This document shows, piece after piece, positions 11,204-42,273 of a DNA stretch of 64,000 nt. Both the position numbers and the translations under genes were made by a program. Numbering within the stretch: the first letter of the stretch is position 1; the number at the start of each line of letters is the position of its first letter. The notes under the pieces are model-generated. The model was not told where the DNA came from and did not search any database. It saw only the letters and a program-made list of their open reading frames with translations. Source of the DNA: a phage; NCBI GenBank assembly GCA_024614665.1, contig GCA_024614665.1_4861.1. One strand, written 5' to 3'.

Positions 11204-11214
11204 TTTAATGCTCC

Positions 11215-15713: not shown

Positions 15714-15724
15714 AGAGAGGAGAG

Positions 15725-24236: not shown

Positions 24237-24256
24237 TTGTTAATGGAGATAAGTAA

Positions 24257-24466: not shown

Positions 24467-24480
24467 TCAGCCTGCAGGCA

Positions 24481-24537
24481 AAAAAAGATATAGGTACCCT
24501 ACTCCCAACGGGAGTAGGGTTTACCTTTTATTTTTTT
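24481..24537. terminator. bidirectional intrinsic terminator
   Basis: A-run, hairpin ACCCTACTCCC-AAC-GGGAGTAGGGT, long T-run; between convergent genes ending 24466 and 24528. Confidence 0.7.
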
Positions 24538-25790
24538 CTTGCTTTGTAGCGATGCATTTCAACAAACGGCTTACCCCAAGCCCCGAAAGGCCCGACGATT
24601 GCCTGCGCGTCGTTTACCAAATTCTGGTTATACCAACGTGCGTTCCCCAACAAAAAGTTTTCCCGGTCGAAGAATGTGGTATTGAAAACCCACTCCCCTT
24701 CTTCCCAGGTCGGCCAGTACCCTACACATTTACCAATACGGTTAAAGATAGGACCTAGCGTTTTCTTCCCATCTGGGTCAGTTGGGTCTTTTAAATAGAA
24801 CCGGCCCCAGATAGCGTTGTGGCTTATTCCGTGAATCTCTTTTTCGAGATACGGGTTGTCTATCGTAAAGATAAACGAGGATTCGTGCGTCAGCAACGCT
24901 TTTAACGTTTCTGAGTTACGAATACGTTGAACGGACGTAGGCGTACTTAAATCACCTACACCGATGGCGTCCCAATCGTAATAGCGACGGGTTTCCAATA
25001 CAATCTTCGCCACGCTAAGGTTTGGCAGACTCAGCATAATCGCACGGTCGCTGAAATAGCCCTGCGGTGGCAACCAATGCAGAATACCCCCGATGACGAA
25101 CCCAACGGTTTTCCCTGTAATGGAATCGGGTAAGGTCAACATTAACGAAGAATAGTAATCTCGCGTAGTATCGAGTTTGTTCATCGTTAAACCGGATATG
25201 GGGTAGGTCTTTACTTTACCGATGTTTGCCATCACCAGACAGCCGATGTCAGGTGTATTGGCACGCCGCACGATGTTACCAGCGCCAGTTAAGCGAACAC
25301 CCACTGGGTCAGATTGGTGAGGTACCCATTGACCGTTGATGTTGTACAGTACCCCGGTACGGTATTTCTCTTTCCACTCATCGTCGCAGACTACAACAAC
25401 GTCATGTGCATCATCAGGATTGAAGTCCTGAGTGTAATGGTACCCAGGAGGGCATAGGTGCGTTTCTACGGGCACATCTGCATTAATAGACTGGTAGTGT
25501 GCCTCAACGAATTCGAGCTTCGGTAGGCCCTTCCCAAGCGTTGGAATCGCGATTCCTGACTTGGTGTTTAACCAATCTTGCAACGTGTCCGTACGGTTTT
25601 GTAAATCTGCCAGGTGATACTGGCTATAGAAGGTATATTCAGCACCTAGTGCTTCTAGTCCTACTTCGAAAAAGTGGTAGTTAGCACAAAGGGTATTTAA
25701 GGGCTGCGTGACATCGATGGTTCCCCAAGTTCGGGTGTCTCGAGAGAAGCCAAAAGCGCTGTCGGCCCGCACTTGATAAGCAGTAGTCAC
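24528..25790 (-). CDS. hypothetical protein (420 aa)
   Basis: ORF track; GTG start with GAGGAAA RBS. Confidence 0.55.
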   Translation of the reverse strand: MTTAYQVRADSAFGFSRDTRTWGTIDVTQPLNTLCANYHFFEVGLEALGAEYTFYSQYHLADLQNRTDTLQDWLNTKSGIAIPTLGKGLPKLEFVEAHYQSINADVPVETHLCPPGYHYTQDFNPDDAHDVVVVCDDEWKEKYRTGVLYNINGQWVPHQSDPVGVRLTGAGNIVRRANTPDIGCLVMANIGKVKTYPISGLTMNKLDTTRDYYSSLMLTLPDSITGKTVGFVIGGILHWLPPQGYFSDRAIMLSLPNLSVAKIVLETRRYYDWDAIGVGDLSTPTSVQRIRNSETLKALLTHESSFIFTIDNPYLEKEIHGISHNAIWGRFYLKDPTDPDGKKTLGPIFNRIGKCVGYWPTWEEGEWVFNTTFFDRENFLLGNARWYNQNLVNDAQAIVGPFGAWGKPFVEMHRYKARKK

Positions 25791-25857: not shown

Positions 25858-28800
25858 ATGGCTGTCGTCCCTGACCCGCACTATCAAGAACCGGGGAATA
25901 TGCAGACCGGTGAAGCGGTAACGCCGATCGGTACTAAGTACCGGATGCTGTTCCCCGCACACGCCCCCTTTTATACCACATCCCTGGTGGTCAAGAGTGG
26001 CGGCAAGAAATTAACATTAGGTGATGATTACGTCATCACCCATGCGTACGTTACGGGCATGGCCCGCACTGGTCATGTTTGTCACGGCGGCGTGTGGATT
26101 ACCAACCCGAAATATCAGAGTGGCTTTACACTCGATTACCATGCAATTGGTATCGGTGAAGCCACTGCAGAAATGATCGCCGCAGAACGAGAAGCGAATA
26201 AAGATCGCTATCCTGTAGACTGCCAATGGGATAACGTCATTGGGGATTTATATTTCCCACCGGTCGATATTAAGTTCGACTGGGAAAACTGGCGTGGTGA
26301 ATCCGAACTGATGGAAGCGATTGCCGAGATCGGACAGAAGATCGCGACATTACCACCGATACCCGATCCGATGGCAAATAACACCGCAAAATACGTTGAT
26401 AACGATTTAGTTGAACCGAACTTTACGTACGATAACGCCGGTGGCTTCGTTACTAATACGAACAAAGCTGACCAGTATAGCACCTTAGGGTCAAGGACGT
26501 ATTCTCTTGGTGACTATAAGTTCCAGGCAACGTATACATTACCAAGTTACTACTCGACAACCACTACGCCGTACTGGTGGTTCACGCTAATCGGGTACTG
26601 GGGATCGCCTTTCCGCAAGGCAACGCTTGAACTTGTTAACGGTAACACTTTCCGCTTCCTAATTACCTACGACTCGTTTGACAAAAAAGAAACGTTCGTC
26701 TGGGCAACTTTGCCGGTTGGGATTGATTTCTTCAAGAAGCCTTTTACAGTTACCATTGACCGTAAACGTGCGGCCCGCACCATCGAATTGACTATTACGC
26801 AGGATTCGAAGGTCGTTTTACACTCGCTGATGGATATGAATAATCCACCGGCAGAGTTTGCGACCAGGTTTACACAACTGGGTATTGCGTCGACGCTGGA
26901 TCGCAATACGGACTTCCGTTTCCGTCACATCAGCAGCATCGGCGATAAAGTGTCTTTTAGGGCTCTTCCAGGCGCAGTCATTGAGGCCCCTGATGGCTCA
27001 GATGTACTATCGATACTCAAAAAGTATCACGCATTAGTTGACCAACTGTACCGAGGCGCGCCAGCGCACGCGCACGTGCCGCGCAAGGATAACCCACATC
27101 GCGATTCGTGGGGTGCAATCCGTGCTTTGGAAAATAACGGTATTGCTTCGGACGCGACACTGGTATACGGAAAAACGCAACCGCAGCTGACAGATTACGT
27201 TAACAATCTGTTGCCGAAACTGTCAACGCTGGCGAATAAGCTTTTGCGTTTACCGGCGGCTGCACAGTCTATCAGCGGCACGTTCGGCATGAAGCCTGGC
27301 CTGACTTCGATAACGTCAGCAGTGGGTACCGATGAGTCTGAAGGCGTGGGTGCGCAATTCACGGTTGACCCGAGGGTTATCCGTTTTATTGGACGCGATT
27401 CGCAAACCGTTAACGCCGGGAACAACCCGATCACATGGCAAGGCGGTGCTAACCAACTCATCCTTTATCCGGATTCCCGTGGATTGGAGTTCAACGGTAA
27501 GAAACTGTTGGACCCTACTACGGTCGGGCCGTATTTGCCGGGTAACGAGTCAGGTGGCGATGGACTGTTTTACGGAACTTCCACAGCTACTGTAACCATT
27601 AACGGTAACGGTATTCAGTCTGTTCCGTTTATTTGTACCTTTGTTCCACCGGAGTCCGATGACCTTGGCCTGATGGCTGTCCGTTTGTTGGCTACTGAAT
27701 TCGGCGATCGTGAGGACTTGGCCGCAACGCCGGCACTCATCAAGAAATTGGATCAGCAGTTTACGGGCAAGTTGGTTGCCGTTAAATCGTACATCAACGA
27801 CATGCCACTGACGAGTTCTATTTACATCGATAAAACTAACTTTGGCTTATCGAACGTACAGAACGTCCCAGATGTACAATTGCCGATTTCCCCGCTCCAA
27901 CAAGCTGAGCTGGACAAGTATGCAGTCGTCGGTCACAAACACACTTCTGCTGCGTTCGGGATTAAGCGTGCAACAACGACGGAGTTCGGTTTAGTACAGT
28001 TCGGCACCGCGGTTGACGATGCCACGCTGGCATTAGACGGCGGTGTGGTCATCCGACAGGCGGACGCCATCACAGAGATAGAGAAGGTTGCGAAGACGGT
28101 CGACTCTGGTGCTGCAATCGACATTATTCGTTACGGTTTACCCGGCACAGATATCATTGAAAACGGCATCACTTACACCGACTGGATGGTTACTATTAAA
28201 GCGAACGATTATTTCGTTGGTCGCGAGTACAAAGTACCTCTTTCCACATTTAACTTGGCGGAGCTATTCCCAGCAACGCACGAGGATGCTGAGTTTGGCG
28301 TGTATGTTGACGTGGCAGGCAACGATGCTAAGTATATTATCTACGAAAATCCAAATACGGCAGAAACTGAGACGATGACCAAAATAGGTTCCATCATCAC
28401 CAGTGAAACCGGTGTGGTGTTTGTAGAAATCCGCAACGTGACGCGTTTAGGTGAGTTCCGTGAATTAGGCGAGCATATCGAGGATGATAACGCCCATATT
28501 CGTCGGGGTATGACGCAAGCTGAATTCGGATTTACTTACGGTACGGGCGGGCCTGTGTGGTCCACGGGTGCACCGGGTACAAAACGTATAGATGCTGATT
28601 GGCGTTACGCGCAGGCTAACAGCTATACGCCTATGTTGGAAGCGGACTACGATCCGGCTGCTGACAAATGGACGTTTAAAACAACCAGTTTATCTGTAGC
28701 CGATTATCGTTTTGTCCACAACACATTCCCGATGTTCCAGAATAACGGCATTACCGCGACGTGGACACCTTTAACCGCAACAGCGGACAGTGTGCTAGAA

Positions 28801-29562
28801 ACGGTAATTGGGTGTTGCCATCACTCGGCCACGTTCATGCACCGTATTTCTGTACTCGTCGCACGCACCGCAGGGCGTATTACCACTCCAGGCGGCGTGA
28901 GCACGTATGCGGGAATCGCGGTTAACTACGGACGTGCTGCACAGGTTGTTATTGGCCTGAATGGTGTCACTGGTTCTGGCCGAGACTGGACGGCACTTAA
29001 TCCATCGGTGCGTTTCAGCCACACGCGAACAGCGGACGGTATTTCGTTCGAGGGAACGATTAACATCGATTCCAAAACGATTAACTTTGAGTTGACGCTA
29101 ACCGCGACAACAAAGACGCTGAAATACACCTTGCAGTCGACCGGCGAGTCGTGGACTGAAGATTTGTCTACCCGTCTCCGTCCTGACTATATTGACTTGA
29201 CGAAACTGATTACCGATCCGAGTACGCCGATTTATCACGGCATGGGTGGTTTGTTTAGTTCCGACACAGAAGTGCGTTTGACCTACGCTAACCTGAACAC
29301 GATGCCGACAAAGAATCGTTATTACGCCACGTTCCTTGATTATGCGATTAACTATTCCGGCTTAAACCGCGCAAGATTCTTTACTGGCGTGGTGGAAGCA
29401 GGTTCAACGATTAATGAGATGAACAGCGAGATGTGCAACTATTCATACAGTTCGTTCCGACCAGTGGATACAGGTAAAATTCCGCCGGCGGCACACCCAT
29501 CCAAGATGATGACGTTCAATCCGCAAAACACGTCAGGTCGAACACTTATTATTCGTGATTAA
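25858..29562 (+). CDS. tail fibre-like protein (1234 aa)
   Basis: AAAGGAG RBS; tail-fibre-type repeats (ATTTEFGLVQFGTAVDDATLALDGG); shared N-terminal module with the next three genes. Confidence 0.75.
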   Translation: MAVVPDPHYQEPGNMQTGEAVTPIGTKYRMLFPAHAPFYTTSLVVKSGGKKLTLGDDYVITHAYVTGMARTGHVCHGGVWITNPKYQSGFTLDYHAIGIGEATAEMIAAEREANKDRYPVDCQWDNVIGDLYFPPVDIKFDWENWRGESELMEAIAEIGQKIATLPPIPDPMANNTAKYVDNDLVEPNFTYDNAGGFVTNTNKADQYSTLGSRTYSLGDYKFQATYTLPSYYSTTTTPYWWFTLIGYWGSPFRKATLELVNGNTFRFLITYDSFDKKETFVWATLPVGIDFFKKPFTVTIDRKRAARTIELTITQDSKVVLHSLMDMNNPPAEFATRFTQLGIASTLDRNTDFRFRHISSIGDKVSFRALPGAVIEAPDGSDVLSILKKYHALVDQLYRGAPAHAHVPRKDNPHRDSWGAIRALENNGIASDATLVYGKTQPQLTDYVNNLLPKLSTLANKLLRLPAAAQSISGTFGMKPGLTSITSAVGTDESEGVGAQFTVDPRVIRFIGRDSQTVNAGNNPITWQGGANQLILYPDSRGLEFNGKKLLDPTTVGPYLPGNESGGDGLFYGTSTATVTINGNGIQSVPFICTFVPPESDDLGLMAVRLLATEFGDREDLAATPALIKKLDQQFTGKLVAVKSYINDMPLTSSIYIDKTNFGLSNVQNVPDVQLPISPLQQAELDKYAVVGHKHTSAAFGIKRATTTEFGLVQFGTAVDDATLALDGGVVIRQADAITEIEKVAKTVDSGAAIDIIRYGLPGTDIIENGITYTDWMVTIKANDYFVGREYKVPLSTFNLAELFPATHEDAEFGVYVDVAGNDAKYIIYENPNTAETETMTKIGSIITSETGVVFVEIRNVTRLGEFRELGEHIEDDNAHIRRGMTQAEFGFTYGTGGPVWSTGAPGTKRIDADWRYAQANSYTPMLEADYDPAADKWTFKTTSLSVADYRFVHNTFPMFQNNGITATWTPLTATADSVLETVIGCCHHSATFMHRISVLVARTAGRITTPGGVSTYAGIAVNYGRAAQVVIGLNGVTGSGRDWTALNPSVRFSHTRTADGISFEGTINIDSKTINFELTLTATTKTLKYTLQSTGESWTEDLSTRLRPDYIDLTKLITDPSTPIYHGMGGLFSSDTEVRLTYANLNTMPTKNRYYATFLDYAINYSGLNRARFFTGVVEAGSTINEMNSEMCNYSYSSFRPVDTGKIPPAAHPSKMMTFNPQNTSGRTLIIRD

Positions 29563-29574
29563 GGAGATTTTTGA

Positions 29575-32500
29575 ATGAAAACGTATCCTTACGATCCTCG
29601 GGGTGTAAATCCCGAGTGTCACTTCATCGAGGAACGTATCATCGACTCCGACAATCCTAACGATCGGGTGGTGATGCTAGATCATCGCCCGTTTTTCGAA
29701 GGATTGGTGGTAACGCTCGCCGGCTCGTCCATACCGCTTACCCGCGGGACGGACTATGAGCTGGAGTATGCTTTAACACCGTTGGACGACTCGGTGACGA
29801 CCCCGGTGTTCTGTGGGGTGCATCTTATTAACCCTAAACTGCGTGGTGCAGTGGTCTTTGAAGGCCAGATGCTCGGGGGTACGTTTTACAGTGGTCTGAT
29901 TGAGATGTTGGATGAGCTAATTAAGGCTCTCAACAATCCAACGGCTGCAGATTGGCTGCTTTTAGGTAATCGACCTTCCCTGTACCCAGCCACCCCTGCA
30001 GCGGTAGCTTGGTCAGACATGCTGAATAAAAAGTATGTTGCCTCTGCAGTGCATGATGTGGAGTTAGATGCCGGGGCGGCCAACGAGCAGATTCGTGAAA
30101 AGCTTACCGAGCTGAAAGATACGGTTCTGGCCTTAGGAACTGAAATCGCCACATTTAACTACCCCGGACACATTGCGTCCACTAACCCTCATGGGACTAC
30201 CGCGGCGCAGGCCGGTGCGCATCCTGTCAACCTGAAAACGCCAGATACTTTCCTGGCGTACGGAAAGACGTTGCGTCAGTTAACCAGCGAGGTCCGTGCA
30301 CTGGGTCTGCAGCAATCGGATATCGACAAGTACATTTCTAAATGGGTATCGAAAGAATCCAAAGGGGTGTTTAATGCGACGATATCTGGTACTCGTGCCC
30401 TGTTCCGTTCTCCTGCTGGCGAATCTGAAATTGTGTTCTCTGCTGAGGCTTTCACTCTTAAATCTAATGGCTCTGTTGTGTTGGCGTGTGGGTATGCCGA
30501 TACTACTGGAACCGTCCGGTTTATGGAGTGGAAAGCAGGCATCAATACATTACGTATTGAGTCGACTGGCAGTGCCTTGGGGATGGATAAGCTGACGCTT
30601 AACGGAACAACGTTGCTGACCACCACCGCTCTCATGGGCTATCAACAAGACCCTGGTGCCGGCGGTGGTACCGGCGGTGGTACCGTTGACCCGGATGACA
30701 ATAAACTGTACATTAGCGGGGTGAACGGCATTACTTTCACGGGTAAAGGGTCAAAAGCCGATCCCGTCGCCGGGAAGGTCACAGCCAAGCCAGCGACGAC
30801 CTCTGAACCCGGCGTTGTGACGCTAACTGATAAGCCGAGCGATGTAGTCAAAGGACAAGCAGCCACCCCAGCTTCGCTCTTACCGTACGAGGGTGATCTG
30901 TCTTCGTACGTCAGGAAGACAACACTGCTGAATAACCAGCCGATGGACACTGGTAGCCGAACGCTAACGAAAAAGGATTTGGGTCTGGACTTGGCTGATA
31001 ACACAGCTGACGTCGATAAACCACTTTCTGATTCGTTGGCAGAAGCAGTTACTGGTCTTAGTGATAAAGGCCACCATCACAACTTCGCCGATTTACAGAT
31101 CCCAACGGCTTCTCAAACAGTTCCCGGTATCGCTCGATATTCTACCAACCTAAATAGCTTGTCGGATAATCGCGGCGTTACCCCGAACGTACTGAACGAT
31201 TTGTCAAAACGTTTAGACGTAGTTGCAGCTGCGCTAGCAAACGCGAAAGAGGACACCGTGACCGATTTTGCCGCTGTGCGCGGTAAGACTTGGACTGTGG
31301 GGTCTTCACGTACCACCCTCGCCGTAACGGATTTGAATTATTTCTATCTGTTAAATGGTGCACGTAAAGAGGGGACGGTATCCGGTTCGATAGACCTGCA
31401 AACCACGCCGATGTTCCAGTGGTTCTCTCCAGATAACCGTATGGAAAGAACGTGGCAGAACGCGGTAATCAATACCGGTGCCGGTATTGATTTTAGTGGG
31501 TTTGAGGTTGCCGTCCCGGAAACGGACTACGGTGCCCAGATTGGTTTAACGACAACCGGAATGGGTGATTTGTCGGTCGTTAACCTCTTGGCGAAAACGT
31601 GGGTTCGTTGCGACTCTGGTAAGCTGCGGATTTGGGTTCGTGGCGGTGGTGCTGTTTCTGTTTATCTAGACGGTGAAATTATCGCTGCGGGTATTACAGA
31701 AGCGGGGTATCTGGAGGCGACTGTCAAGGAGGGGTGGAAGCAACACTGCTTAGCATTCCGTGCCGAGTGTAACGATAGCGCTAAAGCAGCCGCAATTCGT
31801 TTCACAATTTACGACGGTGACTTTGCGGTTGGGGCCTCGGATAAAAACACCAAAGTTGCCCGCCTGCAGGAGTTTGTTAAGACACCGAATGGTTTAAGGC
31901 ATTACCTCTATGTGAACATGATAACCGATGCGTTATATTCGCGCGCCGAACCTATTGTGGACACGGATGGTATTAACCTGGAGCGCGGGTACATTGGTTA
32001 CATTGATGTGCCCGAGACGGGATTGGTTGCAGGTACGACTTACGAGTTTGAAACGACGTTTGATTTTGGCATGGCGTCCGAACTTAAACGGCACTTCGAA
32101 ACACGTCTGGCGCACGGAGTGAGTAATACCGACTGGTCGTTGACGGATAACCCGAAAATGCTGCCGTTGAATAAGGTTGATCCGTTACCTAAACAATGGC
32201 TGTACGCGTATCCAACTAACCCGTCAGTTTCTGGGGATAACCTCGTTCGTTTAGATCGTGGGTTATTTGATTATAAATTCGTAAGTGCCACCTCGCTCAC
32301 GATTCTTCTTGCGGCGGTTGTTTCCACTGAAAACGCGTCCCCGTATTGCTGGTTTACACCAAGCAACCCGAAAGAAAATGGAATGGCGACATTCGAGGGT
32401 TCGGTGGTAATCGACACTGATTATCCTGAAGTCCCAAAAACCTCGGACGTCGAAGTTTCATTAAACTTCATGGCCCCTTCTGCTGATGGGAAAGGTAAAA

Positions 32501-33717
32501 CCAGAGTTCTGCAGTGGAGTAATTCCAAGACCAGTTTAAACTGTGGCTTTATTGCTGCGCCGTACGATAAACCAACCGGAAGAATTGCCAGCACACAATC
32601 CAGCGTTACTAATACGCTGGTTGATGCTCCTCGTGTAATCAAGAGCGTGGAAGTTCAGTCGCCTGACTGTTTAGACTATCTCCCGGTTTCAATCGCTAGC
32701 GAGTTCGCAGCCATTGGTTCACGCTGGCTTATTCGTTATCGCTATATTGTTGATACGCAGATACTGCGAATATCGACGATTAGTAAGATAGGTGGCCAGG
32801 CTTCGGCAACTGTTCGTGAGATAGAATACGACATTCCGTTTGACGCGATTGATTATTTTAAAGGTGGCGCTTTATCGATTAGTGTTACTGGCATCGAAAC
32901 TGGTGAAGGCGTCACAATCAACCACGGTTTGATGGACCCCTCCACAACAGAAGTAGATTTAAATCGTTTCCATTATCTACGCTCATTATTTGAGTCGTAT
33001 ATTGAGCGTTCTCCAGACACCCAGTCTTCTGGGCATGAGGAGATGTCGATATCAACCGTCACGTTCGCGAACTTTGGAGATAACGTCGATAACCCGGTTA
33101 CGGAATACATCACGTTGTCTGCTGCAGGCGAGGGTTATCCGGAACTTGCACCGAATGGTAAACTCCCTGCACCGTTTTACAAAGGACTGCAGAAACGTGG
33201 TGCTCCGCTACTTGAGTCGGCTCCTACAGACTATACGTCTAACGGTGGTGAATGGAAGTACGGCTTTATGCGGGCTTATCGCCCAACTCAAAATGAGCGT
33301 TTTGTGTCGGTAAATGGGACAATGCTCTCTAACTACCCTGGATACATCATCGTGGGTAGTGAGAAAATTCCGGGTAATGTTATACCTTTCAGTGCATCGA
33401 CAACAGCTGTTCAGATATCTGGGACTCTTGCCCGCACGAAACCGATGCAGCCAATTCACATCGTGTTCGTGCCTCCGGAAGGTTCTGTGCCGCCACTGCA
33501 AGCGAAGTTCACTATTAATGGTGTGGGCAGTAGTGGTAATCCGTTGTTCGTGATTACTGAAACGACACCGGTGGAACTTCGCACAGGTGGCGAGACGGTC
33601 CTCATTGAGAAGCGTAATCCATTCCACATCCCCACCAGGACATGGGATTGGATTTTACAAACGTTGGATACTGAACGTAGAAACGAAGGCAACAACTCGG
33701 GTGAGTGGGCCTCTTAG
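29575..33717 (+). CDS. tail fibre-like protein (1380 aa)
   Basis: AAGGAG RBS; ATTSEPGVVTLTDKPSDV and GIARYSTNLNSL fibre-type motifs; Gly-rich GAGGGTGGGT linker. Confidence 0.75.
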   Translation: MKTYPYDPRGVNPECHFIEERIIDSDNPNDRVVMLDHRPFFEGLVVTLAGSSIPLTRGTDYELEYALTPLDDSVTTPVFCGVHLINPKLRGAVVFEGQMLGGTFYSGLIEMLDELIKALNNPTAADWLLLGNRPSLYPATPAAVAWSDMLNKKYVASAVHDVELDAGAANEQIREKLTELKDTVLALGTEIATFNYPGHIASTNPHGTTAAQAGAHPVNLKTPDTFLAYGKTLRQLTSEVRALGLQQSDIDKYISKWVSKESKGVFNATISGTRALFRSPAGESEIVFSAEAFTLKSNGSVVLACGYADTTGTVRFMEWKAGINTLRIESTGSALGMDKLTLNGTTLLTTTALMGYQQDPGAGGGTGGGTVDPDDNKLYISGVNGITFTGKGSKADPVAGKVTAKPATTSEPGVVTLTDKPSDVVKGQAATPASLLPYEGDLSSYVRKTTLLNNQPMDTGSRTLTKKDLGLDLADNTADVDKPLSDSLAEAVTGLSDKGHHHNFADLQIPTASQTVPGIARYSTNLNSLSDNRGVTPNVLNDLSKRLDVVAAALANAKEDTVTDFAAVRGKTWTVGSSRTTLAVTDLNYFYLLNGARKEGTVSGSIDLQTTPMFQWFSPDNRMERTWQNAVINTGAGIDFSGFEVAVPETDYGAQIGLTTTGMGDLSVVNLLAKTWVRCDSGKLRIWVRGGGAVSVYLDGEIIAAGITEAGYLEATVKEGWKQHCLAFRAECNDSAKAAAIRFTIYDGDFAVGASDKNTKVARLQEFVKTPNGLRHYLYVNMITDALYSRAEPIVDTDGINLERGYIGYIDVPETGLVAGTTYEFETTFDFGMASELKRHFETRLAHGVSNTDWSLTDNPKMLPLNKVDPLPKQWLYAYPTNPSVSGDNLVRLDRGLFDYKFVSATSLTILLAAVVSTENASPYCWFTPSNPKENGMATFEGSVVIDTDYPEVPKTSDVEVSLNFMAPSADGKGKTRVLQWSNSKTSLNCGFIAAPYDKPTGRIASTQSSVTNTLVDAPRVIKSVEVQSPDCLDYLPVSIASEFAAIGSRWLIRYRYIVDTQILRISTISKIGGQASATVREIEYDIPFDAIDYFKGGALSISVTGIETGEGVTINHGLMDPSTTEVDLNRFHYLRSLFESYIERSPDTQSSGHEEMSISTVTFANFGDNVDNPVTEYITLSAAGEGYPELAPNGKLPAPFYKGLQKRGAPLLESAPTDYTSNGGEWKYGFMRAYRPTQNERFVSVNGTMLSNYPGYIIVGSEKIPGNVIPFSASTTAVQISGTLARTKPMQPIHIVFVPPEGSVPPLQAKFTINGVGSSGNPLFVITETTPVELRTGGETVLIEKRNPFHIPTRTWDWILQTLDTERRNEGNNSGEWAS

Positions 33718-33728
33718 GACGGACTGCC

Positions 33729-33795
33729 TACGGGCGGGTAGTCCGTAGGTAAACCGCCCTTCCGTTATTGGGAGGGCGGTCTCCGTTTTATTACA
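33729..33795 (+). terminator. tandem hairpins / intrinsic terminator after tail fibre gene 2
   Basis: CCTACGG-N9-CCGTAGG then ACCGCCCTTCC-N7-GGAGGGCGGT followed by CTCCGTTTTATT. Confidence 0.55.
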
Positions 33796-33812
33796 GATTA
33801 GGAGTGTTTGCA

Positions 33813-36800
33813 ATGCCGAGAGAAGATGCGGCGCAGTTTAACGGTACGCTCAGTACCGCTACTTACCCGAACCGTTATTCGGCGGTCATTCCCGTCGAAG
33901 CACCGTTCTATCGCATCGGGTTAACGTTAACCGTTACCGATAAAACAACCGGAACCAAACGCAAGTTAATAGAAGGTCTTGATTATTTCTTAGGACATTA
34001 CTTCCAGGAATTAGCCGAGGCTGAGAACGATGCAATATACGGCAGCATAATGCTGCTGAACGCCACAGAGGTAGAATACGAGTTGTTGTCGGTTGGTCGA
34101 CAGTATCGCATCCCTGCTTCTGAAATCGGCAAGTATCTGGTTAAGACAGATATGAAAGACCCGCGTAACTGCGATTGGTCTGAGCTGATGAAATATCCGC
34201 CGATTATCTCGCCAATCGACCCGCCAAAAGACCTCGAAGAAGCGATTCTTCGCGATGAAATCGTAAAGGCGTTGGAAGATATCCGTCTGGGTATTTTAGA
34301 GCGCGCCCACGAGCTGGATGAGGCTTTTGCCGAAGTTACCGATTTGATTTATCAGAACGGTAAGCAGGTGTTTGAAGATGAGATGTATCAGCACCACCTG
34401 GTTAAAAACGCACACGGTTACACCTGCGGTGATATTGGCGCTCTCCCGGTACTCGGCAAAGCCGTAGATGCGACTAAGGCATTCGGACGTACCCTGGCAG
34501 AGCTAGTGACGTTAATGTCTACCAGCGGCATCCAACAGAAACACGTTGACATGCTTCTGGATAATACCCTGGGTGATTTACTGGGCCGTATGCGTGTTCT
34601 GAATAACGACGCGATTACGTTCCAAACAACGTCTGGTCACGTTATCAGCATGAAGGGTGAGAAGTTCATCATCACCTCGACAAAACCGCTGGTATTAAAA
34701 GCTGACCAGGATAACAACGAACCGGGTATCGCTACGGAGTTCAGTGCTGGTCTGAACACGCTTTGGGTTCACTCGGGTAAAGCAGGTGACAAGTGGGGCG
34801 ATTATGATGCGGGTGTGCTTGCACCTGTGTATAATAGCGTGTATCTCGTTACACCGGATATGGTTAAGATGTACTTGACCTCGGTGAAGATACTTCCAGC
34901 AAACGCCTACTTCAAGTCCAGCGACACGTTGAAGATTTATGGCTCTGGTAAAGAAACAAACAAAGTTTACATGAATGCGGAGCTGCCTGCAGCAACCACA
35001 ACTGTGCAGGGTTTGTTTGCGATTACTAACCTTTCGGCGTCCGCTGCATCGTCCACAGCGATTTCCCAAAAAGCTGTTACTGACTTGAAGAACAAACTCG
35101 ACGGATATGTGGACGACACGTATACGGTCAACGGCAAAGGGTTTGTGTTAGACGAAAACGGTCAAATGCATTTAACCTTAACCGCGTCGGATTTCGGTAT
35201 TGAGAAGATGAACAATACCGGGCCGCTGGAGAAACCGGTTACTAATGCGTTGCGCACCGTGCTATCAGGCAAGGCACTCTCAACACACACCCACACCATT
35301 GCTGATCTCGATGACGTGCCGTACGCATCCACATCTGTTACAGGTTTGGCTAAACTGTGGGATGCTATTGACACCACAACAGATAAGATGGTTACTGCCC
35401 GCCAGGGTTTCTTGCTCGAACAGAAGATCGGTACACTGAACGACAAGATTGCTACGTTGTTGCCAGCATGGACCGTTGGCGGATCGTCGTACGGTAACAA
35501 TAACTTCTTGCCTATACCTGTCCAGGGGAACTACGAAGGGTACACCAAAAACCAAACTTGGCAAAAAGGACTGGCGCGTTACGAGGCTGGTAAGGTTTAC
35601 TCGTTGCGTAATGGTTCCAACGGTAACGCCCCTGCTGACTGGGCTATCTATTACGCCTATGCTGATGTGTCGCCAAGCAATACGCTGGAAAATATGCAGC
35701 AGACGTCCGTACGTTATCACCCCGCTGGAATGTCGGCGTATCCTGGGGTGAATCTGGTTGCTATTCTGATTACCGGTACAGATGCAATGATCTGCTTAGG
35801 CAGTGACGGTGCGTATTACCTGGTCATCTTTGACGGCACCATTGACCATGCAAAACATCATCGTGTTGTTAAAGTTTACTTGGGCGATTACCGAAATGGT
35901 AACGCGGCCGGTGTGATTACAACCGCACCATGGGTTGCCGATCCATCAACAAACGATTTGATCGTTTGCAACGATCGGGTTTATCTGCTCCGTACTGTGC
36001 TTACCTCCGGTGACTATTTCGTGAGTATGCGTAGCATCGCACTCGACGAACTTAATCTGGGTGGTAGCAACACGTTTGTGGCGGATGTGTTAACGGGTGG
36101 GATGTTAACGTCGGGAGATAATATCTACTTGCGTCAGGGTCAGAAACGTTCTGATACAGATGTGTTGGTAGCGCCAGTAACACAAATCTACGCAGACGCA
36201 TCGGCGAAGTGGAATAGTGCGCGAAATTTCGTCCATGGTCCGGAATGTAATCACGCGATTGCTGTGGATGGGCTGAACTTTCGTGTTGGTTTAACGCCAA
36301 CAGTCTGGTTTGCTTCTACTACAGGGCAAACTATTAACTTTAAACAATGGGTGTCAAGCTTTGTTGTTGATTGCAGTTCAATGACGGTAACGCTGGAAGG
36401 GGCTGATCGATTCCCTATTGTGGCTGATCTTACCGCGGTTCGTTATAACGGTGGTGCTGAGATTGGGATTCCGAGCTGGAAGTGGGGCGAAGGTCAAGCT
36501 AATAACCGAACCTTTGCAACATCGCAAGACAAGTATATTGTTTCGCAAGGACTTTCAGGCGATCGCGACCTAATGCCTTATGTCAGGATTACAACGTTAG
36601 ATGACGGTGTGAGTTGGTACGAGTACCTGTCGTGCGACTACAACTTCACTGCCAGAAGTTTTAGTGCGGTAATGTTAAACCAAGGACGTGGTTCTATCTA
36701 CGAGCTGGGTATGGCGTATCCGCTGACTCTGGGAGCGAATTCCAGACTTATCTGGTTGTCACAACCGCGTACCCGTTTGGCAATTGAAGTTGAGTTTGAT

Positions 36801-38996
36801 CCGAACACCACTTACTCAGGTAAGGCGGGGTATGGCCCAACTAACAATCGTCGTGTAGTAGATTCTATCACGTATGAGAATCTGTCGCAGATGTGCCACA
36901 TTGTTACACCGGCGTCGCCTGGTACAGAGTTAAACGGCTGGTATTGCACAGGACCAGAAACATTCCCTTACCACAACGTTTCCGGCACTTTCACGATTCA
37001 TGCCGATCGATTGACGCTGTCACAAGCTGAATGGAATAAGATGAAGCAGATGATCATCGACGGAGCACCGGCAGGCGCTGCGAATGGTTATGCTTCGGAA
37101 TTTATCCTTGCTGCAAATAACGCAGGAAAGGCATTGTTTTCCGTTTGGTTCATCGGCATCGGAACGGCCACACCGCTCACATTAGCACAAGTAGCATGTA
37201 CACGTACTGTGAACAATGTTAACGTGTTAGATATCTACTACTTTACACTGAAACCAACAATCAGCAACGGGCAGGTAACATTCCCCGCAGCGATATTGGC
37301 ACTGTTTGACTTCTATAACAACCTCGTCTATGGCTTGAACTATGCTACGTTGGGAGAGATAACGGGAGGAAAAACACGCCGGCCGGGACAACCTACCATG
37401 GTGTCGGTAGATGGTACGCAGTTCGGGTTGTATCTTCCACACACGTTAACCTTGCGCCAAATTGGCGACTTGGGTGCGCTTAACTACGGTGTCGGTCTTA
37501 CGCTGTCTAATGGTACCTGGACGCGTTCTTCTGCCCCGCGCGGCATTGGACGCATGGCACCATCACACACTCCAGTCAGCCCAGCTTATCTGGCTCATCG
37601 TGATCAGGTGATGCTACACAACTCATCTCTCGACTACGTCTATTGTGGTGGTATCGCAATGTCGTCGAGTGATTTTGTCGCGGCTCCTAATTTTAGTGGC
37701 CCGACTGAATCGGTCGTCATTGCTGGTGTGGAAACAGCCGAAGGTTGGCTGGTATATGTGACTGAGGAAGTTAACCTGCGTTTCGGCTCGAGCACTTATA
37801 AGCTGCCTACGTGGTATATTGACCTCAGCGCAGCGTTTCCAACAAACCATCAGAACCGGACATTCTACCTGCACGCCAAGGTAGAAAATGGTACACCGAA
37901 GTACGTAATGGACGTGATTCAACATCCAGACACTGAAACGGAACTCTATATCGGGTATGTTAAAACGGGCTCGTCGCGAGTCGTCGAGACTAATGTCGAA
38001 CATGTTAAGCGCTTGGGTGCGGTGAAACAGCTGTTGGAACACGCAGCAGTTGAGAATAAGCACGATGTGGAAGTGGGAAGGGATGCAGCAACGGGCAGAC
38101 TGGCACCATTACGTAAAGAAGCGATGGGTCCTTTGTCTATCGATGGCAAGAAAGGCTATCTGGATAGTCAGTTGCTTTATACCGTATCTGACGCACAGCG
38201 TCGCGGTAAAGCGATGGTGTCCAAACGTTTCGAAGGCTTGAAAACCTTGCCGGTGTTTACTCAGGCAAACAAGTCGGGGGCGTTTTGGAAACATCCTACA
38301 ACAATTGCGACGGTAACGGCCGATGAGAACGGTGAAGCGGCATCGTTGGGAATGGAGTGGGTAGGTATTCCAACGCCCGCCTTCTCTCCGACCACAACAT
38401 ACGCGATGGTGATGATACAAAGTAAATTCGTCGTCCCAGGTACACCTGGAGTGGAAACAACCTTTAATGTCAACATCGCCCCATGGGAGACGGTAGAAAT
38501 GTTTTTCTACAACGTCGAGGCGGAAGGTAAGGATGTTAACATTGATGAAAGTTCAGAACTGTTAACGCCGAGACCACATACCGTGTATCACGAACAGCAC
38601 TCTCTGCCCGCAGGCGTGCCATGTACGTTTACTTTCGTTGGTGTGTTGAGTTCCTCAGCGCTTGAGATGGCCAACCAGCATATTTGCTCTTGGCTTTTCA
38701 CGGACGCGGGGGGACTACCAATCACCACCGATCTTTCGGATAGTAAGATTCAAATCTTTCCAGCGGCGGGAGAGACCAACGGCACACCAGTTGTTTTTAA
38801 CAGCCGTAGCTACACGTTTGTGGATGTGGCGGGTGCAATTCCGGTTGTTACCACGGGCGCTCAGGGTTTATACCCACCACCGATCGTGGCGTGGGATGGC
38901 GATGATCTTACGTTAACGATTGCGCACGATTGGGTGAACGAGAGAGGATGGCAACAGGCTAATGTTATCCAGGTCAATCTTATGTTCCGTACCTAA
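33813..38996 (+). CDS. tail fibre-like protein (about 1727 aa)
   Basis: ORF track 33768..38996; start moved to ATG (MPRED...) with AGGAG RBS because upstream codons lie inside terminator hairpins; ATTTVQGLFAIT and STHTHTIADLDDV motifs. Confidence 0.75.
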   Translation: MPREDAAQFNGTLSTATYPNRYSAVIPVEAPFYRIGLTLTVTDKTTGTKRKLIEGLDYFLGHYFQELAEAENDAIYGSIMLLNATEVEYELLSVGRQYRIPASEIGKYLVKTDMKDPRNCDWSELMKYPPIISPIDPPKDLEEAILRDEIVKALEDIRLGILERAHELDEAFAEVTDLIYQNGKQVFEDEMYQHHLVKNAHGYTCGDIGALPVLGKAVDATKAFGRTLAELVTLMSTSGIQQKHVDMLLDNTLGDLLGRMRVLNNDAITFQTTSGHVISMKGEKFIITSTKPLVLKADQDNNEPGIATEFSAGLNTLWVHSGKAGDKWGDYDAGVLAPVYNSVYLVTPDMVKMYLTSVKILPANAYFKSSDTLKIYGSGKETNKVYMNAELPAATTTVQGLFAITNLSASAASSTAISQKAVTDLKNKLDGYVDDTYTVNGKGFVLDENGQMHLTLTASDFGIEKMNNTGPLEKPVTNALRTVLSGKALSTHTHTIADLDDVPYASTSVTGLAKLWDAIDTTTDKMVTARQGFLLEQKIGTLNDKIATLLPAWTVGGSSYGNNNFLPIPVQGNYEGYTKNQTWQKGLARYEAGKVYSLRNGSNGNAPADWAIYYAYADVSPSNTLENMQQTSVRYHPAGMSAYPGVNLVAILITGTDAMICLGSDGAYYLVIFDGTIDHAKHHRVVKVYLGDYRNGNAAGVITTAPWVADPSTNDLIVCNDRVYLLRTVLTSGDYFVSMRSIALDELNLGGSNTFVADVLTGGMLTSGDNIYLRQGQKRSDTDVLVAPVTQIYADASAKWNSARNFVHGPECNHAIAVDGLNFRVGLTPTVWFASTTGQTINFKQWVSSFVVDCSSMTVTLEGADRFPIVADLTAVRYNGGAEIGIPSWKWGEGQANNRTFATSQDKYIVSQGLSGDRDLMPYVRITTLDDGVSWYEYLSCDYNFTARSFSAVMLNQGRGSIYELGMAYPLTLGANSRLIWLSQPRTRLAIEVEFDPNTTYSGKAGYGPTNNRRVVDSITYENLSQMCHIVTPASPGTELNGWYCTGPETFPYHNVSGTFTIHADRLTLSQAEWNKMKQMIIDGAPAGAANGYASEFILAANNAGKALFSVWFIGIGTATPLTLAQVACTRTVNNVNVLDIYYFTLKPTISNGQVTFPAAILALFDFYNNLVYGLNYATLGEITGGKTRRPGQPTMVSVDGTQFGLYLPHTLTLRQIGDLGALNYGVGLTLSNGTWTRSSAPRGIGRMAPSHTPVSPAYLAHRDQVMLHNSSLDYVYCGGIAMSSSDFVAAPNFSGPTESVVIAGVETAEGWLVYVTEEVNLRFGSSTYKLPTWYIDLSAAFPTNHQNRTFYLHAKVENGTPKYVMDVIQHPDTETELYIGYVKTGSSRVVETNVEHVKRLGAVKQLLEHAAVENKHDVEVGRDAATGRLAPLRKEAMGPLSIDGKKGYLDSQLLYTVSDAQRRGKAMVSKRFEGLKTLPVFTQANKSGAFWKHPTTIATVTADENGEAASLGMEWVGIPTPAFSPTTTYAMVMIQSKFVVPGTPGVETTFNVNIAPWETVEMFFYNVEAEGKDVNIDESSELLTPRPHTVYHEQHSLPAGVPCTFTFVGVLSSSALEMANQHICSWLFTDAGGLPITTDLSDSKIQIFPAAGETNGTPVVFNSRSYTFVDVAGAIPVVTTGAQGLYPPPIVAWDGDDLTLTIAHDWVNERGWQQANVIQVNLMFRT

Positions 38997-39043
38997 CAGA
39001 TAGCGCTATGGGGCAAGGAAGCCCCAATCAAAGGAGTTTGGCA

Positions 39044-40246
39044 ATGGCCGAAATCATTTATCAGTACCCGCTCGACCTTACCGGGACATTAACGTCGAAC
39101 GCCGTTACGCGGCGTATTACGTTAGGTTCTGGTAAAGTTAACCGGGCTTTTGCATTTCCTGACGGAGCTTTCTACGCGGATACTTTCCGCTTAGCGGCTG
39201 CGAACAAACCGGGTGTCTACCCGTACAAACGTGGTACAGACTACGAGCTGATTTTTGCACATACTGCATATCAGAAAATGACCAAGAACCGCGAAGTGGT
39301 CATGGGTGTGGTGGTAACTAACTCGGCCATTCCTACAGATATCGAAGTCTCTGCGCAAGTCGTTGGTGGTTTTCAGTCTGCGAACGTCGAAGGCATCCGA
39401 CAAGCGATTGCGTCGTTGAAAATTGAAGACCGCGTGGTGGACTTCAAGGATCTTCGGAACGTACCCGATACGTTCCCGTCCGCACCGACGTATAAAGACC
39501 TTGGCGATATCTACGGTTTTGAGTACATCATTACCGTGCTCGCGGGGATTAAAGATGCGATTAACTCCGGCTCTGCAGTACAGCTGGAAGAAATTAAAGG
39601 TATTCTGGACGGTCTGAAAAACGACTTCCTCGATGCCTTAAATACCCACATCAACGCCGAAGGTAACGTACACAATCTCGACATTCATCAGGTTAATGGC
39701 CTGACGGAGACGGAGATTCGTGCTCTGATTCAAAGTGTACAGACTGCCATTGACGCCACTATCAGAGATATCGGCGACTTAAGAGCAGCAGACACGGCGT
39801 TGGGGCAACGCATCGATGCAGTTGTGGCTTCGTTAGCCGCGTGGAACGACCAGCTTAATGTAGTTGCTCAAAATTACCAGAAAATGTCGTTAGCATTAGC
39901 TAACCTTAATTCTCTGGTGTTGCAATTACAGAAGAAGGTTAATGATCTTCAGTCTGCGCTGAATGAAACAAATCAGCGTGTCACGGATCTTGAGAATCAA
40001 GGCAAAGACTTCCAACAGCAAATTGATAACCTGCAAGGACAAATCAACAGTCTTAAAACTCAGGTTGTAAACAACACCAACGCAATTTCGCAGGCAAACC
40101 AGAATCTGGCGAACCATGCGGCTGCGGATAACCCACACCCGAATTACCTCCATAAACAGTATGGCGGTGTTGTGCAGGCTGCTGTTCACGTCAACAACAA
40201 CCTCACCTCGCGCGACGATGTTCAAGCTGAAGCGGGTACTAAGTAA
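39044..40246 (+). CDS. tail fibre-like protein with C-terminal coiled coil (about 400 aa)
   Basis: ORF track 39008..40246; ATG (MAEIIYQ...) with AAGGAG RBS; shared N-terminal module (GTDYELIFAHTAY); heptad-like Q/N/L-rich segment. Confidence 0.7.
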   Translation: MAEIIYQYPLDLTGTLTSNAVTRRITLGSGKVNRAFAFPDGAFYADTFRLAAANKPGVYPYKRGTDYELIFAHTAYQKMTKNREVVMGVVVTNSAIPTDIEVSAQVVGGFQSANVEGIRQAIASLKIEDRVVDFKDLRNVPDTFPSAPTYKDLGDIYGFEYIITVLAGIKDAINSGSAVQLEEIKGILDGLKNDFLDALNTHINAEGNVHNLDIHQVNGLTETEIRALIQSVQTAIDATIRDIGDLRAADTALGQRIDAVVASLAAWNDQLNVVAQNYQKMSLALANLNSLVLQLQKKVNDLQSALNETNQRVTDLENQGKDFQQQIDNLQGQINSLKTQVVNNTNAISQANQNLANHAAADNPHPNYLHKQYGGVVQAAVHVNNNLTSRDDVQAEAGTK

Positions 40247-42251: not shown

Positions 42252-42273
42252 AAATATACTGGAGCAACCTGCA

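What the first reader, a model, noticed from the sequence alone, without database searches (positions are those of the whole stretch)
25858..40246. Four consecutive tail-fibre-like genes share an N-terminal module but have unrelated distal parts
The N-termini of the 1234-, 1380-, 1727- and 400-aa proteins share a pattern (hydrophobic-P-F-Y/F ... G-x-DYEL/DYVI: FPAHAPFYTT...GDDYVITHAY; HRPFFEG...GTDYELEYAL; EAPFYRIGLTL...; FPDGAFYADTF...GTDYELIFAHTAY). Further in they carry tail-fibre motifs of the A-T-T-x-x-x-G type and then diverge completely. This is the architecture expected when several receptor-binding fibres dock onto a common virion site, implying a broad or multi-receptor adsorption apparatus.
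Basis: partly seen in the sequence, partly recalled or inferred. Interest (0 to 1): 0.6.

Follow-up and report, generated by a model that had tools for sequence, protein, structure and literature searches.

The report
Known jumbo-phage baseplate fibre paralogues

Summary
The window is an SPN3US-like Salmonella jumbo phage (Seoulvirus, 96-97% identity). The four genes are homologues of SPN3US gp170, gp169, gp168 and gp167.

**Observation: confirmed.**
- Four of six pairs of N-termini are significantly similar.
- Leave-one-out profiles recover each member (E 5e-10 to 7e-5; best unrelated ORF E 0.29 or worse).
- One PHROG family covers all four.

**The module is the phiKZ gp131-like N-terminal domain.**
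- A profile of the four hits gp131, gp135, gp134 and gp133.
- The layout is conserved: a divergently transcribed gp130 homologue (gp171) sits just upstream.

**Prior work.**
- SPN3US papers (2016-2023) call gp168-170 "paralog family C", fibre or baseplate proteins.
- The 2026 phiKZ cryo-EM atlas fits six such N-domains plus a six-helix bundle into each fibre base under gp130.

**Corrections to the finding.**
- The three long proteins also share a shaft of about 350 aa and a distal domain of about 125 aa.
- The short protein is conserved throughout, with a coiled coil, so it is probably structural.
- Co-assembly of the paralogues is at least as likely as separate fibres on one site.

**One new detail.** The gp170 homologue has an internal cassette of about 240 aa with at least four very divergent alleles among otherwise near-identical phages.

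Interest is low.

The parts
24528..25790 (-). Homologue of SPN3US gp171 and phiKZ gp130 (420 aa), divergently transcribed. It is the probable baseplate platform under which the fibre base docks.
   Evidence: blastp against phiKZ-type gp130: E 2.4e-15 over 428 aa. PHROG 3337. A homologue sits immediately upstream of the N-module genes in CR5, 201phi2-1, PCH45 and RSL2. SPN3US gp171 is essential and tail-associated (PMC5105663). phiKZ fibres attach beneath gp130 (PMC13250141).
25858..29562 (+). Gene A, the SPN3US gp170 homologue (1234 aa). By its N-domain it is the orthologue of phiKZ gp131.
   Evidence: PHROG 7557, full length. 83% identical overall to SPN3US gp170. Its N-domain groups with phiKZ-type gp131 at 100% bootstrap.
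25900..26370 (+). N-terminal gp131-like module of A (aa 15-171).
   Evidence: HMM match. Leave-one-out E 9e-9. blastp against phiKZ-type gp131: E 2.5e-9.
26323..27042 (+). Polymorphic internal cassette of A (aa 156 to about 395), predicted to be a beta-sandwich. B, C, D and phiKZ gp131 have no counterpart.
   Evidence: No nucleotide match to SPN3US or SEGD1 over 26324-27020. Identity is 14-40% in 50-aa bins while the flanks are 98-100% identical. At least 4 alleles exist among near-identical homologues. The closest is Erwinia phage ChrisDB at 74% aa identity. The alleles are homologous but as low as 26% identical. AF2 pLDDT 60-86.
27055..28062 (+). Proximal shaft of A (aa 400 to about 735), with the NPH, ATTxxxG, KP and GHxH motifs. 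It is homologous to the shafts of B and C.
   Evidence: Alignment A4. blastp A 412-734 against C 199-531, E 2e-4, and A 622-720 against B 429-527, E 6e-5. Motif positions.
28126..28503 (+). Distal beta-domain of about 125 aa in A (aa 757-882), shared with C and marginally with B.
   Evidence: blastp E 5e-11. hhalign probability 98.8%, E 5e-17. AF2 pLDDT about 85.
28600..29289 (+). Distal beta-rich domain of A (aa about 915-1144), fast-evolving. A candidate receptor-binding domain.
29575..33717 (+). Gene B, the SPN3US gp169 homologue (1380 aa). N-module aa 3-165 (29581-30069), shaft aa about 200-562, variable distal part from about aa 900.
   Evidence: PHROG 8078, full length. HMM match. blastp against phiKZ-type gp131: E 4.5e-7. 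Identity profile.
33753..33780 (+). Strong hairpin (12-bp stem) followed by a T-rich tail, in the gap between B and C. Possibly a terminator or attenuator between the two genes.
   Evidence: It overlaps the TTG at 33768, which favours ATG 33813 as the start of C.
33813..38996 (+). Gene C, the SPN3US gp168 homologue (1727 aa). N-module aa 14-170 (33852-34322), shaft aa about 197-545, highly variable region aa about 600-1300, shared beta-domain aa 1292-1419 (37686-38069).
   Evidence: PHROG 7449, full length. HMM match. blastp against phiKZ-type gp131: E 7e-9. Identity to the SPAsTU orthologue is 18-31% over aa 700-1300 against 78-90% over aa 1-500. hhalign.
39008..40246 (+). Gene D, the SPN3US gp167 homologue (412 aa, or 400 aa from ATG 39044). 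N-module aa 12-186 (39041-39565), long helices, a coiled coil over aa about 240-370, and a C-terminal NPH motif. Its positional counterpart in phiKZ is gp135.
   Evidence: PHROG 2163, E 8e-109. blastp against phiKZ-type gp135: E 5.6e-14. AF2: beta-sandwich over aa about 28-120 with pLDDT 86-95, helix 127-140, helices 171-217. Only coiled-coil families match in Pfam. Conserved over its whole length: 89-97% in SPAsTU, 60-76% in ChrisDB. Detected in SPN3US virions.

Best explanation
The four genes are the Seoulvirus version of the chimallivirus gp131-like baseplate-fibre paralogue family: SPN3US gp170, gp169, gp168 and gp167, corresponding to phiKZ gp131-gp135.

**The common N-terminus.**
- It consists of a beta-sandwich of about 100 aa, a short helix, a flexible linker and a long helix.
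- It is the module that fixes these proteins to the outer baseplate beneath the gp130 homologue gp171, which is encoded divergently next door.
- It packs with the N-modules of the other paralogues, and the helices form a bundle, to make the base of a fibre.

**The rest of each protein.**
- The three long proteins continue with a homologous shaft of about 350 aa carrying classic fibre motifs, one shared beta-domain of about 125 aa, and otherwise unrelated, fast-evolving distal domains. At least one of these has a lectin-type fold. They contact the host surface.
- The short protein D (N-module plus coiled coil, conserved throughout) is a structural partner in the fibre base.

**What is shown and what is inferred.**
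- Shown here: the homology, the synteny, the ancient orthologue groups, and the pattern of conservation and variability.
- Taken from the literature: virion and tail location in SPN3US, and the position of the domain in the phiKZ baseplate.
- Inferred: that the Seoulvirus paralogues co-assemble rather than forming four independent fibres, and that the distal domains bind receptors.
For: **Identity of the locus.**
- 96-97% nucleotide identity to SPN3US and SEGD1, with the same gene order.

**N-module homology.**
- Within the window.
- To phiKZ-type proteins: blastp A, B, C against gp131 E 2.5e-9, 4.5e-7, 7e-9; D against gp135 E 5.6e-14. The profile of the four hits gp131 at 2e-20, gp135 at 3e-20, gp134 at 2e-9 and gp133 at 7e-7.

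**Conserved layout.**
- A gp130 homologue on the minus strand is followed by a run of N-module genes in phiKZ-type phages, 201phi2-1, CR5, PCH45 and RSL2.

**Ancient, distinct paralogues.**
- The A, B, C and D orthologue groups each have 100% bootstrap support. A groups with gp131 at 100%.

**Predicted structure.**
- A confident N-terminal beta-sandwich followed by long helices.

**Conservation pattern.**
- The N-termini and shafts are conserved and the distal parts are variable, while D is conserved throughout.

**Literature.**
- SPN3US gp167-171 are all virion proteins of similar low abundance: spectral counts per kDa of protein mass (SC/M) of 0.74-1.90 against 0.93-1.29 for the 12-copy portal.
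- gp168-170 are absent from tailless particles and are named paralog family C (PMC5694885, PMC10052503). gp171 is essential (PMC5105663).
- In phiKZ, six gp131-like N-domains and a six-helix bundle are fitted beneath gp130, with twelve fibres per virion (PMC13250141).
- gp131-135 are all free of transposon insertions (PMC12676376).
Against: - The phiKZ hetero-hexamer is itself a "candidate" model: AlphaFold models docked into 4.4-4.6 A maps. Chain identities and stoichiometry there are not firmly established.
- No structure exists for the SPN3US baseplate periphery.
- The split into long and short paralogues differs: three long plus one short here, one long plus three short in phiKZ. The phiKZ arrangement therefore cannot be transferred one to one.
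- The number of detectable paralogues varies between lineages, from 2 to 4.
- Spectral-count abundances cannot tell 12, 18 or 36 copies apart.
- No receptor-binding activity has been shown for any of the four proteins.
- The lectin-fold match cannot be assigned to a particular domain from the output, and it rests on a model with a mean pLDDT of 62.
Confidence: 0.7

Rival explanations
1. Four independent fibres, probably homotrimers, each use the same kind of N-terminal adaptor to occupy equivalent docking sites on the baseplate. The virion then carries several alternative receptor-binding fibres and has a broad or multi-receptor host range.
For: - The shared N-module with different distal parts is the classic pattern for interchangeable fibres.
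- All four proteins are in the SPN3US virion at similar abundance, which equal numbers of homotrimers would also give.
- A, B and C each have a full shaft with trimer-type fibre motifs.
- The phiKZ map shows two classes of attachment site with the same architecture.
Against: - The N-modules of the paralogues are only about 20-25% identical, and two pairs are not detectably similar pairwise. Orthologues in contrast keep 53-100% identity. This is odd for domains that must fit one and the same site.
- Each paralogue lineage is ancient and has been kept separately.
- The phiKZ density is interpreted as six N-domains from four paralogues in one base.
- The phiKZ paralogues are individually essential.
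- D has no distal receptor-binding part.
Confidence: 0.25
2. The proteins are mainly architectural parts of the unusually large chimallivirus baseplate periphery. The shared N-domain is a building block of that lattice, and host recognition is done by other proteins, such as homologues of phiKZ gp145/gp146 or the DUF7941 filament proteins described for Goslar.
For: - phiKZ gp131 was first located at the baseplate periphery (cited in PMC5105663).
- The TnSeq paper calls gp131-135 a "paralogous baseplate protein family".
- D looks purely structural.
- The Goslar study proposes a different family as host-recognition filaments.
Against: - A, B and C have long shafts with fibre motifs.
- Their distal regions evolve fast between phages with different hosts.
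- Gene A carries a polymorphic cassette and a lectin-type fold. None of this is expected of a purely internal scaffold.
- The phiKZ atlas traces fibres downward from these N-domains.
Confidence: 0.1
3. The N-terminal resemblance is a chance or compositional similarity.
For: A-D and C-D are not significant in direct pairwise comparison.
Against: - Four of six pairs are significant against shuffles.
- Leave-one-out profiles recover every member.
- One PHROG family covers all four.
- The profile of the four finds 2914 cluster representatives, always at the N-terminus.
Confidence: 0.01

Closest known systems
SPN3US paralog family C (gp168, gp169, gp170) plus gp167 and gp171 (Thomas et al. 2016, Ali et al. 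2017, 2023: PMC5105663, PMC5694885, PMC10052503)
   Same: - Direct orthologues. B, C and D are about 92-100% identical in most 100-aa bins, and A is 83% identical overall.
- Same gene order.
- Already described as paralogous baseplate or tail-fibre candidates similar to phiKZ gp131, present in virions and absent from tailless particles.
   Different: - The published family lists only gp168-170. gp167 (D) was detected in virions but not placed in the family. Here it is shown to carry the same N-module.
- The window phage carries a different allele of the internal gp170 cassette from SPN3US: 26% identity over about 200 aa.
phiKZ gp131/gp133/gp134/gp135 fibre paralogues and their gp130 platform (Sycheva et al. 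2012; structural atlas PMC13250141)
   Same: - Homologous N-terminal domain.
- Same tandem layout next to a divergent gp130 homologue.
- Four N-module genes.
- A long helix after the N-domain, which could make the helical bundle.
- Distal parts unrelated between paralogues.
   Different: - phiKZ has one long (771 aa) and three short (about 460 aa) paralogues plus the small gp132. This phage has three very long (1234-1727 aa) and one short (400 aa).
- No match to the seven-bladed propeller of the gp131 C-terminus.
- Gene A has an inserted polymorphic cassette that gp131 lacks.
201phi2-1 gp216-gp220 virion paralogues
   Same: Four N-module genes after a gp130 homologue. The GenBank record already annotates them as paralogues of each other, as similar to phiKZ proteins, and as virion proteins by mass spectrometry.
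   Different: phiKZ-type size pattern (one protein of 738 aa and three of about 450 aa). No long shafts.
N-terminal virion-binding domains of T7-type tail fibres and tailspikes (T7 gp17 N-domain, 7boz/8e4g; P-SCSP1u gp28; CBA120 TSP4 N-terminus)
   Different: The scores are weak, Foldseek finds nothing (best E-value 0.21) and there is no sequence similarity. These are homotrimeric adaptors on podovirus tails. The resemblance is a lead only, not evidence of membership.

Membership tests
Chimallivirus gp131-like N-terminal-domain fibre paralogues (phiKZ gp131/133/134/135) | An N-terminal domain of about 150 aa homologous to the N-terminus of phiKZ gp131 | tested here: met
   blastp E 2.5e-9 to 5.6e-14. 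The profile of the four window modules hits gp131, gp135, gp134 and gp133 at 2e-20 to 7e-7.
Chimallivirus gp131-like N-terminal-domain fibre paralogues (phiKZ gp131/133/134/135) | Several paralogues in tandem, next to a divergently transcribed gp130 homologue | tested here: met
   gp171 against gp130: E 2.4e-15. The same layout is found in phiKZ-type phages, 201phi2-1, CR5, PCH45 and RSL2.
Chimallivirus gp131-like N-terminal-domain fibre paralogues (phiKZ gp131/133/134/135) | The similarity between paralogues is at the N-terminal end, and the C-terminal parts differ | tested here: met
   Exceptions: a shaft shared by A, B and C, and one shared distal domain of about 125 aa.
Chimallivirus gp131-like N-terminal-domain fibre paralogues (phiKZ gp131/133/134/135) | Located at the baseplate periphery or fibres of the virion | not testable with these tools
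   Literature only. SPN3US gp167-171 were detected in virions, gp168-170 are missing from tailless particles (PMC5694885, PMC10052503), and phiKZ gp131 is at the baseplate periphery (PMC13250141).
Chimallivirus gp131-like N-terminal-domain fibre paralogues (phiKZ gp131/133/134/135) | Six N-domains plus a six-helix bundle form one hetero-oligomeric fibre base | tested here: inconclusive
   A long helix (aa 171-217 of D) follows the N-domain in the monomer model. No multimer prediction or map was available, and the spectral-count stoichiometry is not decisive.
phiKZ gp131 C-terminal seven-bladed beta-propeller | A distal domain homologous to 4GBF | tested here: not met
SPN3US paralog family C | Orthology to SPN3US gp168, gp169 and gp170 | tested here: met
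   Collinear alignment at 96-97% nucleotide identity. Protein identity profiles.
DUF7941 baseplate filament proteins (Goslar gp22/gp23, phiKZ gp126/gp127) | A match to the DUF7941 Pfam model | tested here: not met
   No Pfam family reaches threshold in A, B or C. D matches only coiled-coil models below their cut-offs. None of 24 N-module proteins matches any relevant Pfam family.
Classical tail-fibre Pfam families (phage tail repeat and others) | A match above the gathering threshold | tested here: not met
   Only sub-threshold PTR (PF12789), E 0.028, in C 480-501. The motif-level resemblance (ATTxxxG, KP, GHxH, NPH) is seen in the alignment.
T7 gp17-type N-terminal fibre adaptor fold | Significant structural similarity of the N-domain | tested here: inconclusive

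The most novel reading that the evidence does not exclude
The fibre base has three "long" and three "short" positions, and the Seoulvirus lineage is the mirror image of phiKZ.

- phiKZ would use gp131 x3 plus gp133, gp134 and gp135. SPN3US-type phages would use gp167 (D) x3 plus one copy each of A, B and C.
- The homologous 350-aa shafts of A, B and C would form a heterotrimer that splays into three different tips, so every fibre would carry three distinct distal binding regions.
- On top of that, the internal lectin-like cassette of gp170 would be a freely exchanged specificity allele, with at least four alleles shared across genera.
- Phages such as RSL2, with one long and one short paralogue, would represent the simple ancestral state.

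Nothing here excludes this. The similar abundance of A, B and C, close to that of the 12-copy portal, and the higher value for D point the right way but are far from proof.
Probability: 0.2. Interest if true: 0.55.

Novelty: already known. Interest (0 to 1): 0.22.

Why it matters
- **The family itself is documented.** It was noted in the 201phi2-1 annotation, in the phiKZ gp131 work of 2012, in the SPN3US papers of 2016-2023 and in the phiKZ atlas of 2026. Confirming it in another SPN3US-like genome adds little.
- **Practical use.** The boundaries worked out here show which segments could be swapped to retarget these Salmonella jumbo phages, which are used in biocontrol cocktails. These segments are the anchor, the shaft, the shared beta-domain, the variable distal regions and the polymorphic gp170 cassette.
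- **Gap in the databases.** The N-domain is a very large family (2914 clusters at 50% identity) that still has no Pfam model.
- **Open question.** Whether the paralogues form one mixed fibre or several separate ones can now be tested directly in the genetically tractable SPN3US system.

Tried and rejected
- **Pfam:** a scan of the four proteins gave no family above threshold.
- **PDB by sequence:** searches with A, B, C and D and with the N-module profile gave nothing relevant. The copy holds only the gp131 C-terminus (4GBF), not the docked phiKZ N-domains.
- **Foldseek:** the N-domain model against the PDB gave no E-value below 0.2.
- **Word-indexed homologue search:** with the B N-terminus it returned only 5 proteins. 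The exhaustive HMMER search was needed instead.
- **DUF7941 (Goslar filament family):** considered and rejected.
- **A gp131-type propeller at the tip:** rejected.
- **Sigma-70 promoter scan:** fewer sites than in shuffles, and these phages use their own RNA polymerases, so it is uninformative.
- **Stoichiometry:** spectral counts were examined to separate hetero-hexamers from homotrimers and are not decisive.
- **Other copies in the window:** no additional N-module copy was found on either strand. The short minus-strand ORFs inside the four genes have no support.


Full report
**What the window is.** The region matches Salmonella jumbo phages of the genus Seoulvirus (SPN3US, SEGD1, the SPFM phages) at 96-97% nucleotide identity, with the same gene order. 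By position and by predicted mass, the four genes of the finding are homologues of SPN3US proteins:

| Gene | Window coordinates | Length | SPN3US homologue |
|---|---|---|---|
| A | 25858-29562 | 1234 aa | gp170 |
| B | 29575-33717 | 1380 aa | gp169 |
| C | 33813-38996 | 1727 aa | gp168 |
| D | 39008 or 39044-40246 | 412 or 400 aa | gp167 |

The 420-aa gene on the opposite strand just upstream (24528-25790) is gp171. The exact A protein is also encoded on a 237-kb contig assembled from a public sequencing run.

**Check of the observation.**
- The quoted motifs are present and fall into the same alignment columns.
- Local alignment scores of the first 160 residues against 1000 shuffles are significant for A-B, A-C, B-C and B-D (z 6-13, no shuffle reaching the score). 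A-D and C-D are not significant.
- Profiles close that gap. Leave-one-out HMMs recover each omitted protein at E 5e-10 to 7e-5 among all 491 ORFs of the window, and the best unrelated ORF scores E 0.29 or worse.
- PHROG 2163 matches the N-terminus of all four.
- No other ORF in the window has the module.
- The refutation criterion, no significant similarity on formal alignment, is therefore not met.

**Three details of the finding need correction.**
1. The shared region goes far beyond 100 residues. B and C align over about 540 residues (E 2e-23). A shares the same shaft of about 350 aa after an insertion of about 240 aa. The shaft carries the motifs NPH(G), ATTxxxG, (N)T.D..KP.S and GHxH.
2. 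ATTxxxG is present once each in A, B and C, where about 0.1 is expected by chance, and is absent from D.
3. The distal parts are not wholly unrelated. A 757-882 and C 1292-1419 are homologous (blastp E 5e-11; profile-profile probability 98.8%, E 5e-17), and B 740-877 matches marginally. Nothing else in the distal parts is detectably shared.

**What the module is.**
- The N-termini of A, B and C match the N-terminus of phiKZ-type gp131 (E 2.5e-9, 4.5e-7, 7e-9). D matches gp135 (E 5.6e-14). gp171 matches gp130 (E 2.4e-15).
- A profile built only from the four window modules hits gp131, gp135, gp134 and gp133 of a phiKZ-type phage at 2e-20 to 7e-7.
- The layout is the same in both lineages: gp130 on one strand, then gp131, the small gp132, gp133, gp134 and gp135 on the other.
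- The arrangement "divergent gp130 homologue followed by 2-4 N-module genes" is also found in CR5, 201phi2-1, PCH45 and RSL2. The 201phi2-1 GenBank record already annotates gp216-220 as mutual paralogues and as virion proteins.
- Searched against 1.84 billion cluster representatives, the profile finds 2914 proteins (1704 at E 1e-10 or better) of 159-2164 aa, with the match at the N-terminus in all 150 hits listed.
- No Pfam family covers the module.

**Structure.**
- AlphaFold2 on D 1-240 with a 24-sequence alignment gives a confident beta-sandwich (aa about 28-120, pLDDT 86-95), a helix at 127-140, a low-confidence linker and long helices at 171-217.
- Foldseek against the PDB finds nothing.
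- A model of A 140-1234 has a mean pLDDT of 62. The shaft is poorly predicted, as expected for a monomer of a fibre, but there are three reasonably confident beta domains: the insertion (A about 189-370, pLDDT 60-86), the domain shared with C (A about 759-864, about 85) and a distal domain (A about 915-1144, 81-93).

**Evolutionary pattern.**
- Compared with SPAsTU (hosts Typhi and Paratyphi A) and the Erwinia phage ChrisDB, the N-modules and shafts of A, B and C are well conserved. A beyond about aa 900, B beyond about aa 900 and C over aa 600-1300 drop to 15-60% identity. D is conserved along its whole length.
- A neighbour-joining tree of the N-modules gives 100% bootstrap for each of the A, B, C and D orthologue groups, and 100% for A plus phiKZ-type gp131. 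gp133, gp134 and gp135 group together (79%) and only weakly with D.
- The paralogues are thus old, are kept apart, and are only about 20-25% identical to each other.

**What is already published.**
- Thomas et al. 2016 and Ali et al. 2017 and 2023 name gp168-170 "paralog family C". They call them baseplate or tail-fibre candidates on the basis of similarity to phiKZ gp131, and show they are missing from tailless particles. gp171 is essential.
- Their supplementary table lists gp167 as a virion protein of comparable abundance, in spectral counts per kDa of protein mass (SC/M): gp167 1.90, gp169 1.41, gp168 1.08, gp170 1.00, gp171 0.74, and the 12-copy portal 0.93-1.29. It does not put gp167 in the family.
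- The 2026 structural atlas of phiKZ finds fibre-attachment sites beneath gp130. [quoted passage not shown] The assignment rests on AlphaFold models docked into 4.4-4.6 A maps and is called a candidate model.
- A phage TnSeq study reports that all of gp131-135 lack insertions.
- SPN3US is reported to use flagella as its receptor.

**Most likely mechanism.**
- The N-module is the baseplate anchor and oligomerisation unit of the fibres. gp171 is its platform. A, B and C carry shafts and variable host-binding ends. D is a structural partner.
- I consider co-assembly of different paralogues in one fibre base somewhat more likely than four independent fibres on equivalent sites. The reasons are the phiKZ map, the individual essentiality of the phiKZ paralogues, and the deep, position-like divergence of the N-modules. 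This step is inferred, not shown.
- The long/short pattern is inverted relative to phiKZ (three long and one short here). An attractive but unproven reading is D x3 plus a heterotrimer of A, B and C.

**A new detail.**
- Residues 156 to about 395 of A (window 26323-27042) have no nucleotide match in SPN3US or in any of the roughly 23 close phage genomes. They are 14-40% identical at the protein level between flanks that are 98-100% identical.
- Among 120 near-identical homologues from isolate and metagenome assemblies there are at least four alleles of this cassette, in proteins of 1234, 1237, 1238 and 1240 aa.
- The window's allele is closest to that of Erwinia phage ChrisDB. It is 74% identical there, higher than the flanking regions, and only 26% identical to the SPN3US allele, yet still clearly homologous.
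- The cassette sits exactly where A has an insertion relative to B, C, D and gp131.
- It looks like an exchangeable specificity domain. I found no mention of it in the papers read.

**Verdict.** The "several fibres on one site, hence multi-receptor" reading is only partly supported. I rate the novelty as already known and the interest as low.

Noticed in passing
window 26323-27042 (aa 156 to about 395 of gene A): A sharply bounded, highly divergent cassette in the gp170 homologue. It is 14-40% identical to SPN3US between flanks that are 98-100% identical. At least four alleles exist among otherwise near-identical homologues. The nearest allele is in Erwinia phage ChrisDB (74% aa). It is predicted to be a beta-sandwich and may be the lectin-like domain. 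A candidate exchangeable specificity determinant.
   Followed up: partly
window 40312-40704 and 40715-41119 (+): Two tandem paralogous small ORFs (130 and 134 aa) directly downstream of gene D. Both match PHROG 6085 (unknown function) at E about 1e-40. The SPN3US record annotates only one overlapping 111-aa ORF in another frame here. They might be fibre assembly factors, but this was not tested.
   Followed up: no
window 33753-33780 (+): A strong hairpin (12-bp stem, 8 G-C pairs) followed by a T-rich tail, in the 95-nt gap between genes B and C. It may be a terminator or attenuator inside the fibre gene run, and it argues for ATG 33813 as the start of C.
   Followed up: no
window about 24250-24470 (+), between the baseplate assembly gene (23117-24049) and gp171: A small gene for a YdgH/BhsA-like (DUF1471) protein, a family of enterobacterial envelope stress proteins, sits inside the phage baseplate gene cluster. 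It is annotated in SPN3US and SPAsTU, and PF07338 is recorded on the Logan contig.
   Followed up: no
window 42238-43188 and 43181-44509 (+): Two adjacent radical SAM genes (PF04055, E 1e-15) about 2 kb downstream of the fibre genes. They are conserved in SPN3US, ChrisDB and CR5.
   Followed up: no
related sequences: Dozens of contigs of about 240 kb carrying gp170 homologues are deposited as parts of Salmonella enterica (and a few E. coli) isolate assemblies of many serovars. This suggests that SPN3US-like jumbo phages are often carried along with cultured isolates, in a carrier state or as contamination.
   Followed up: no
L002 (SEGD1) 10953-16135: In the SEGD1 record the gp168 homologue is annotated as two overlapping genes (SEGD1_173 and SEGD1_172). 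This is probably a frameshift or sequencing error, because it is one 1727-aa ORF here and in SPN3US.
   Followed up: no
N-modules of A, B, C and D (for example window 39041-39565): The gp131-like N-terminal domain defines a very large family: 2914 cluster representatives at E 1e-3 or better, in proteins of 159-2164 aa. No Pfam model covers it.
   Followed up: partly
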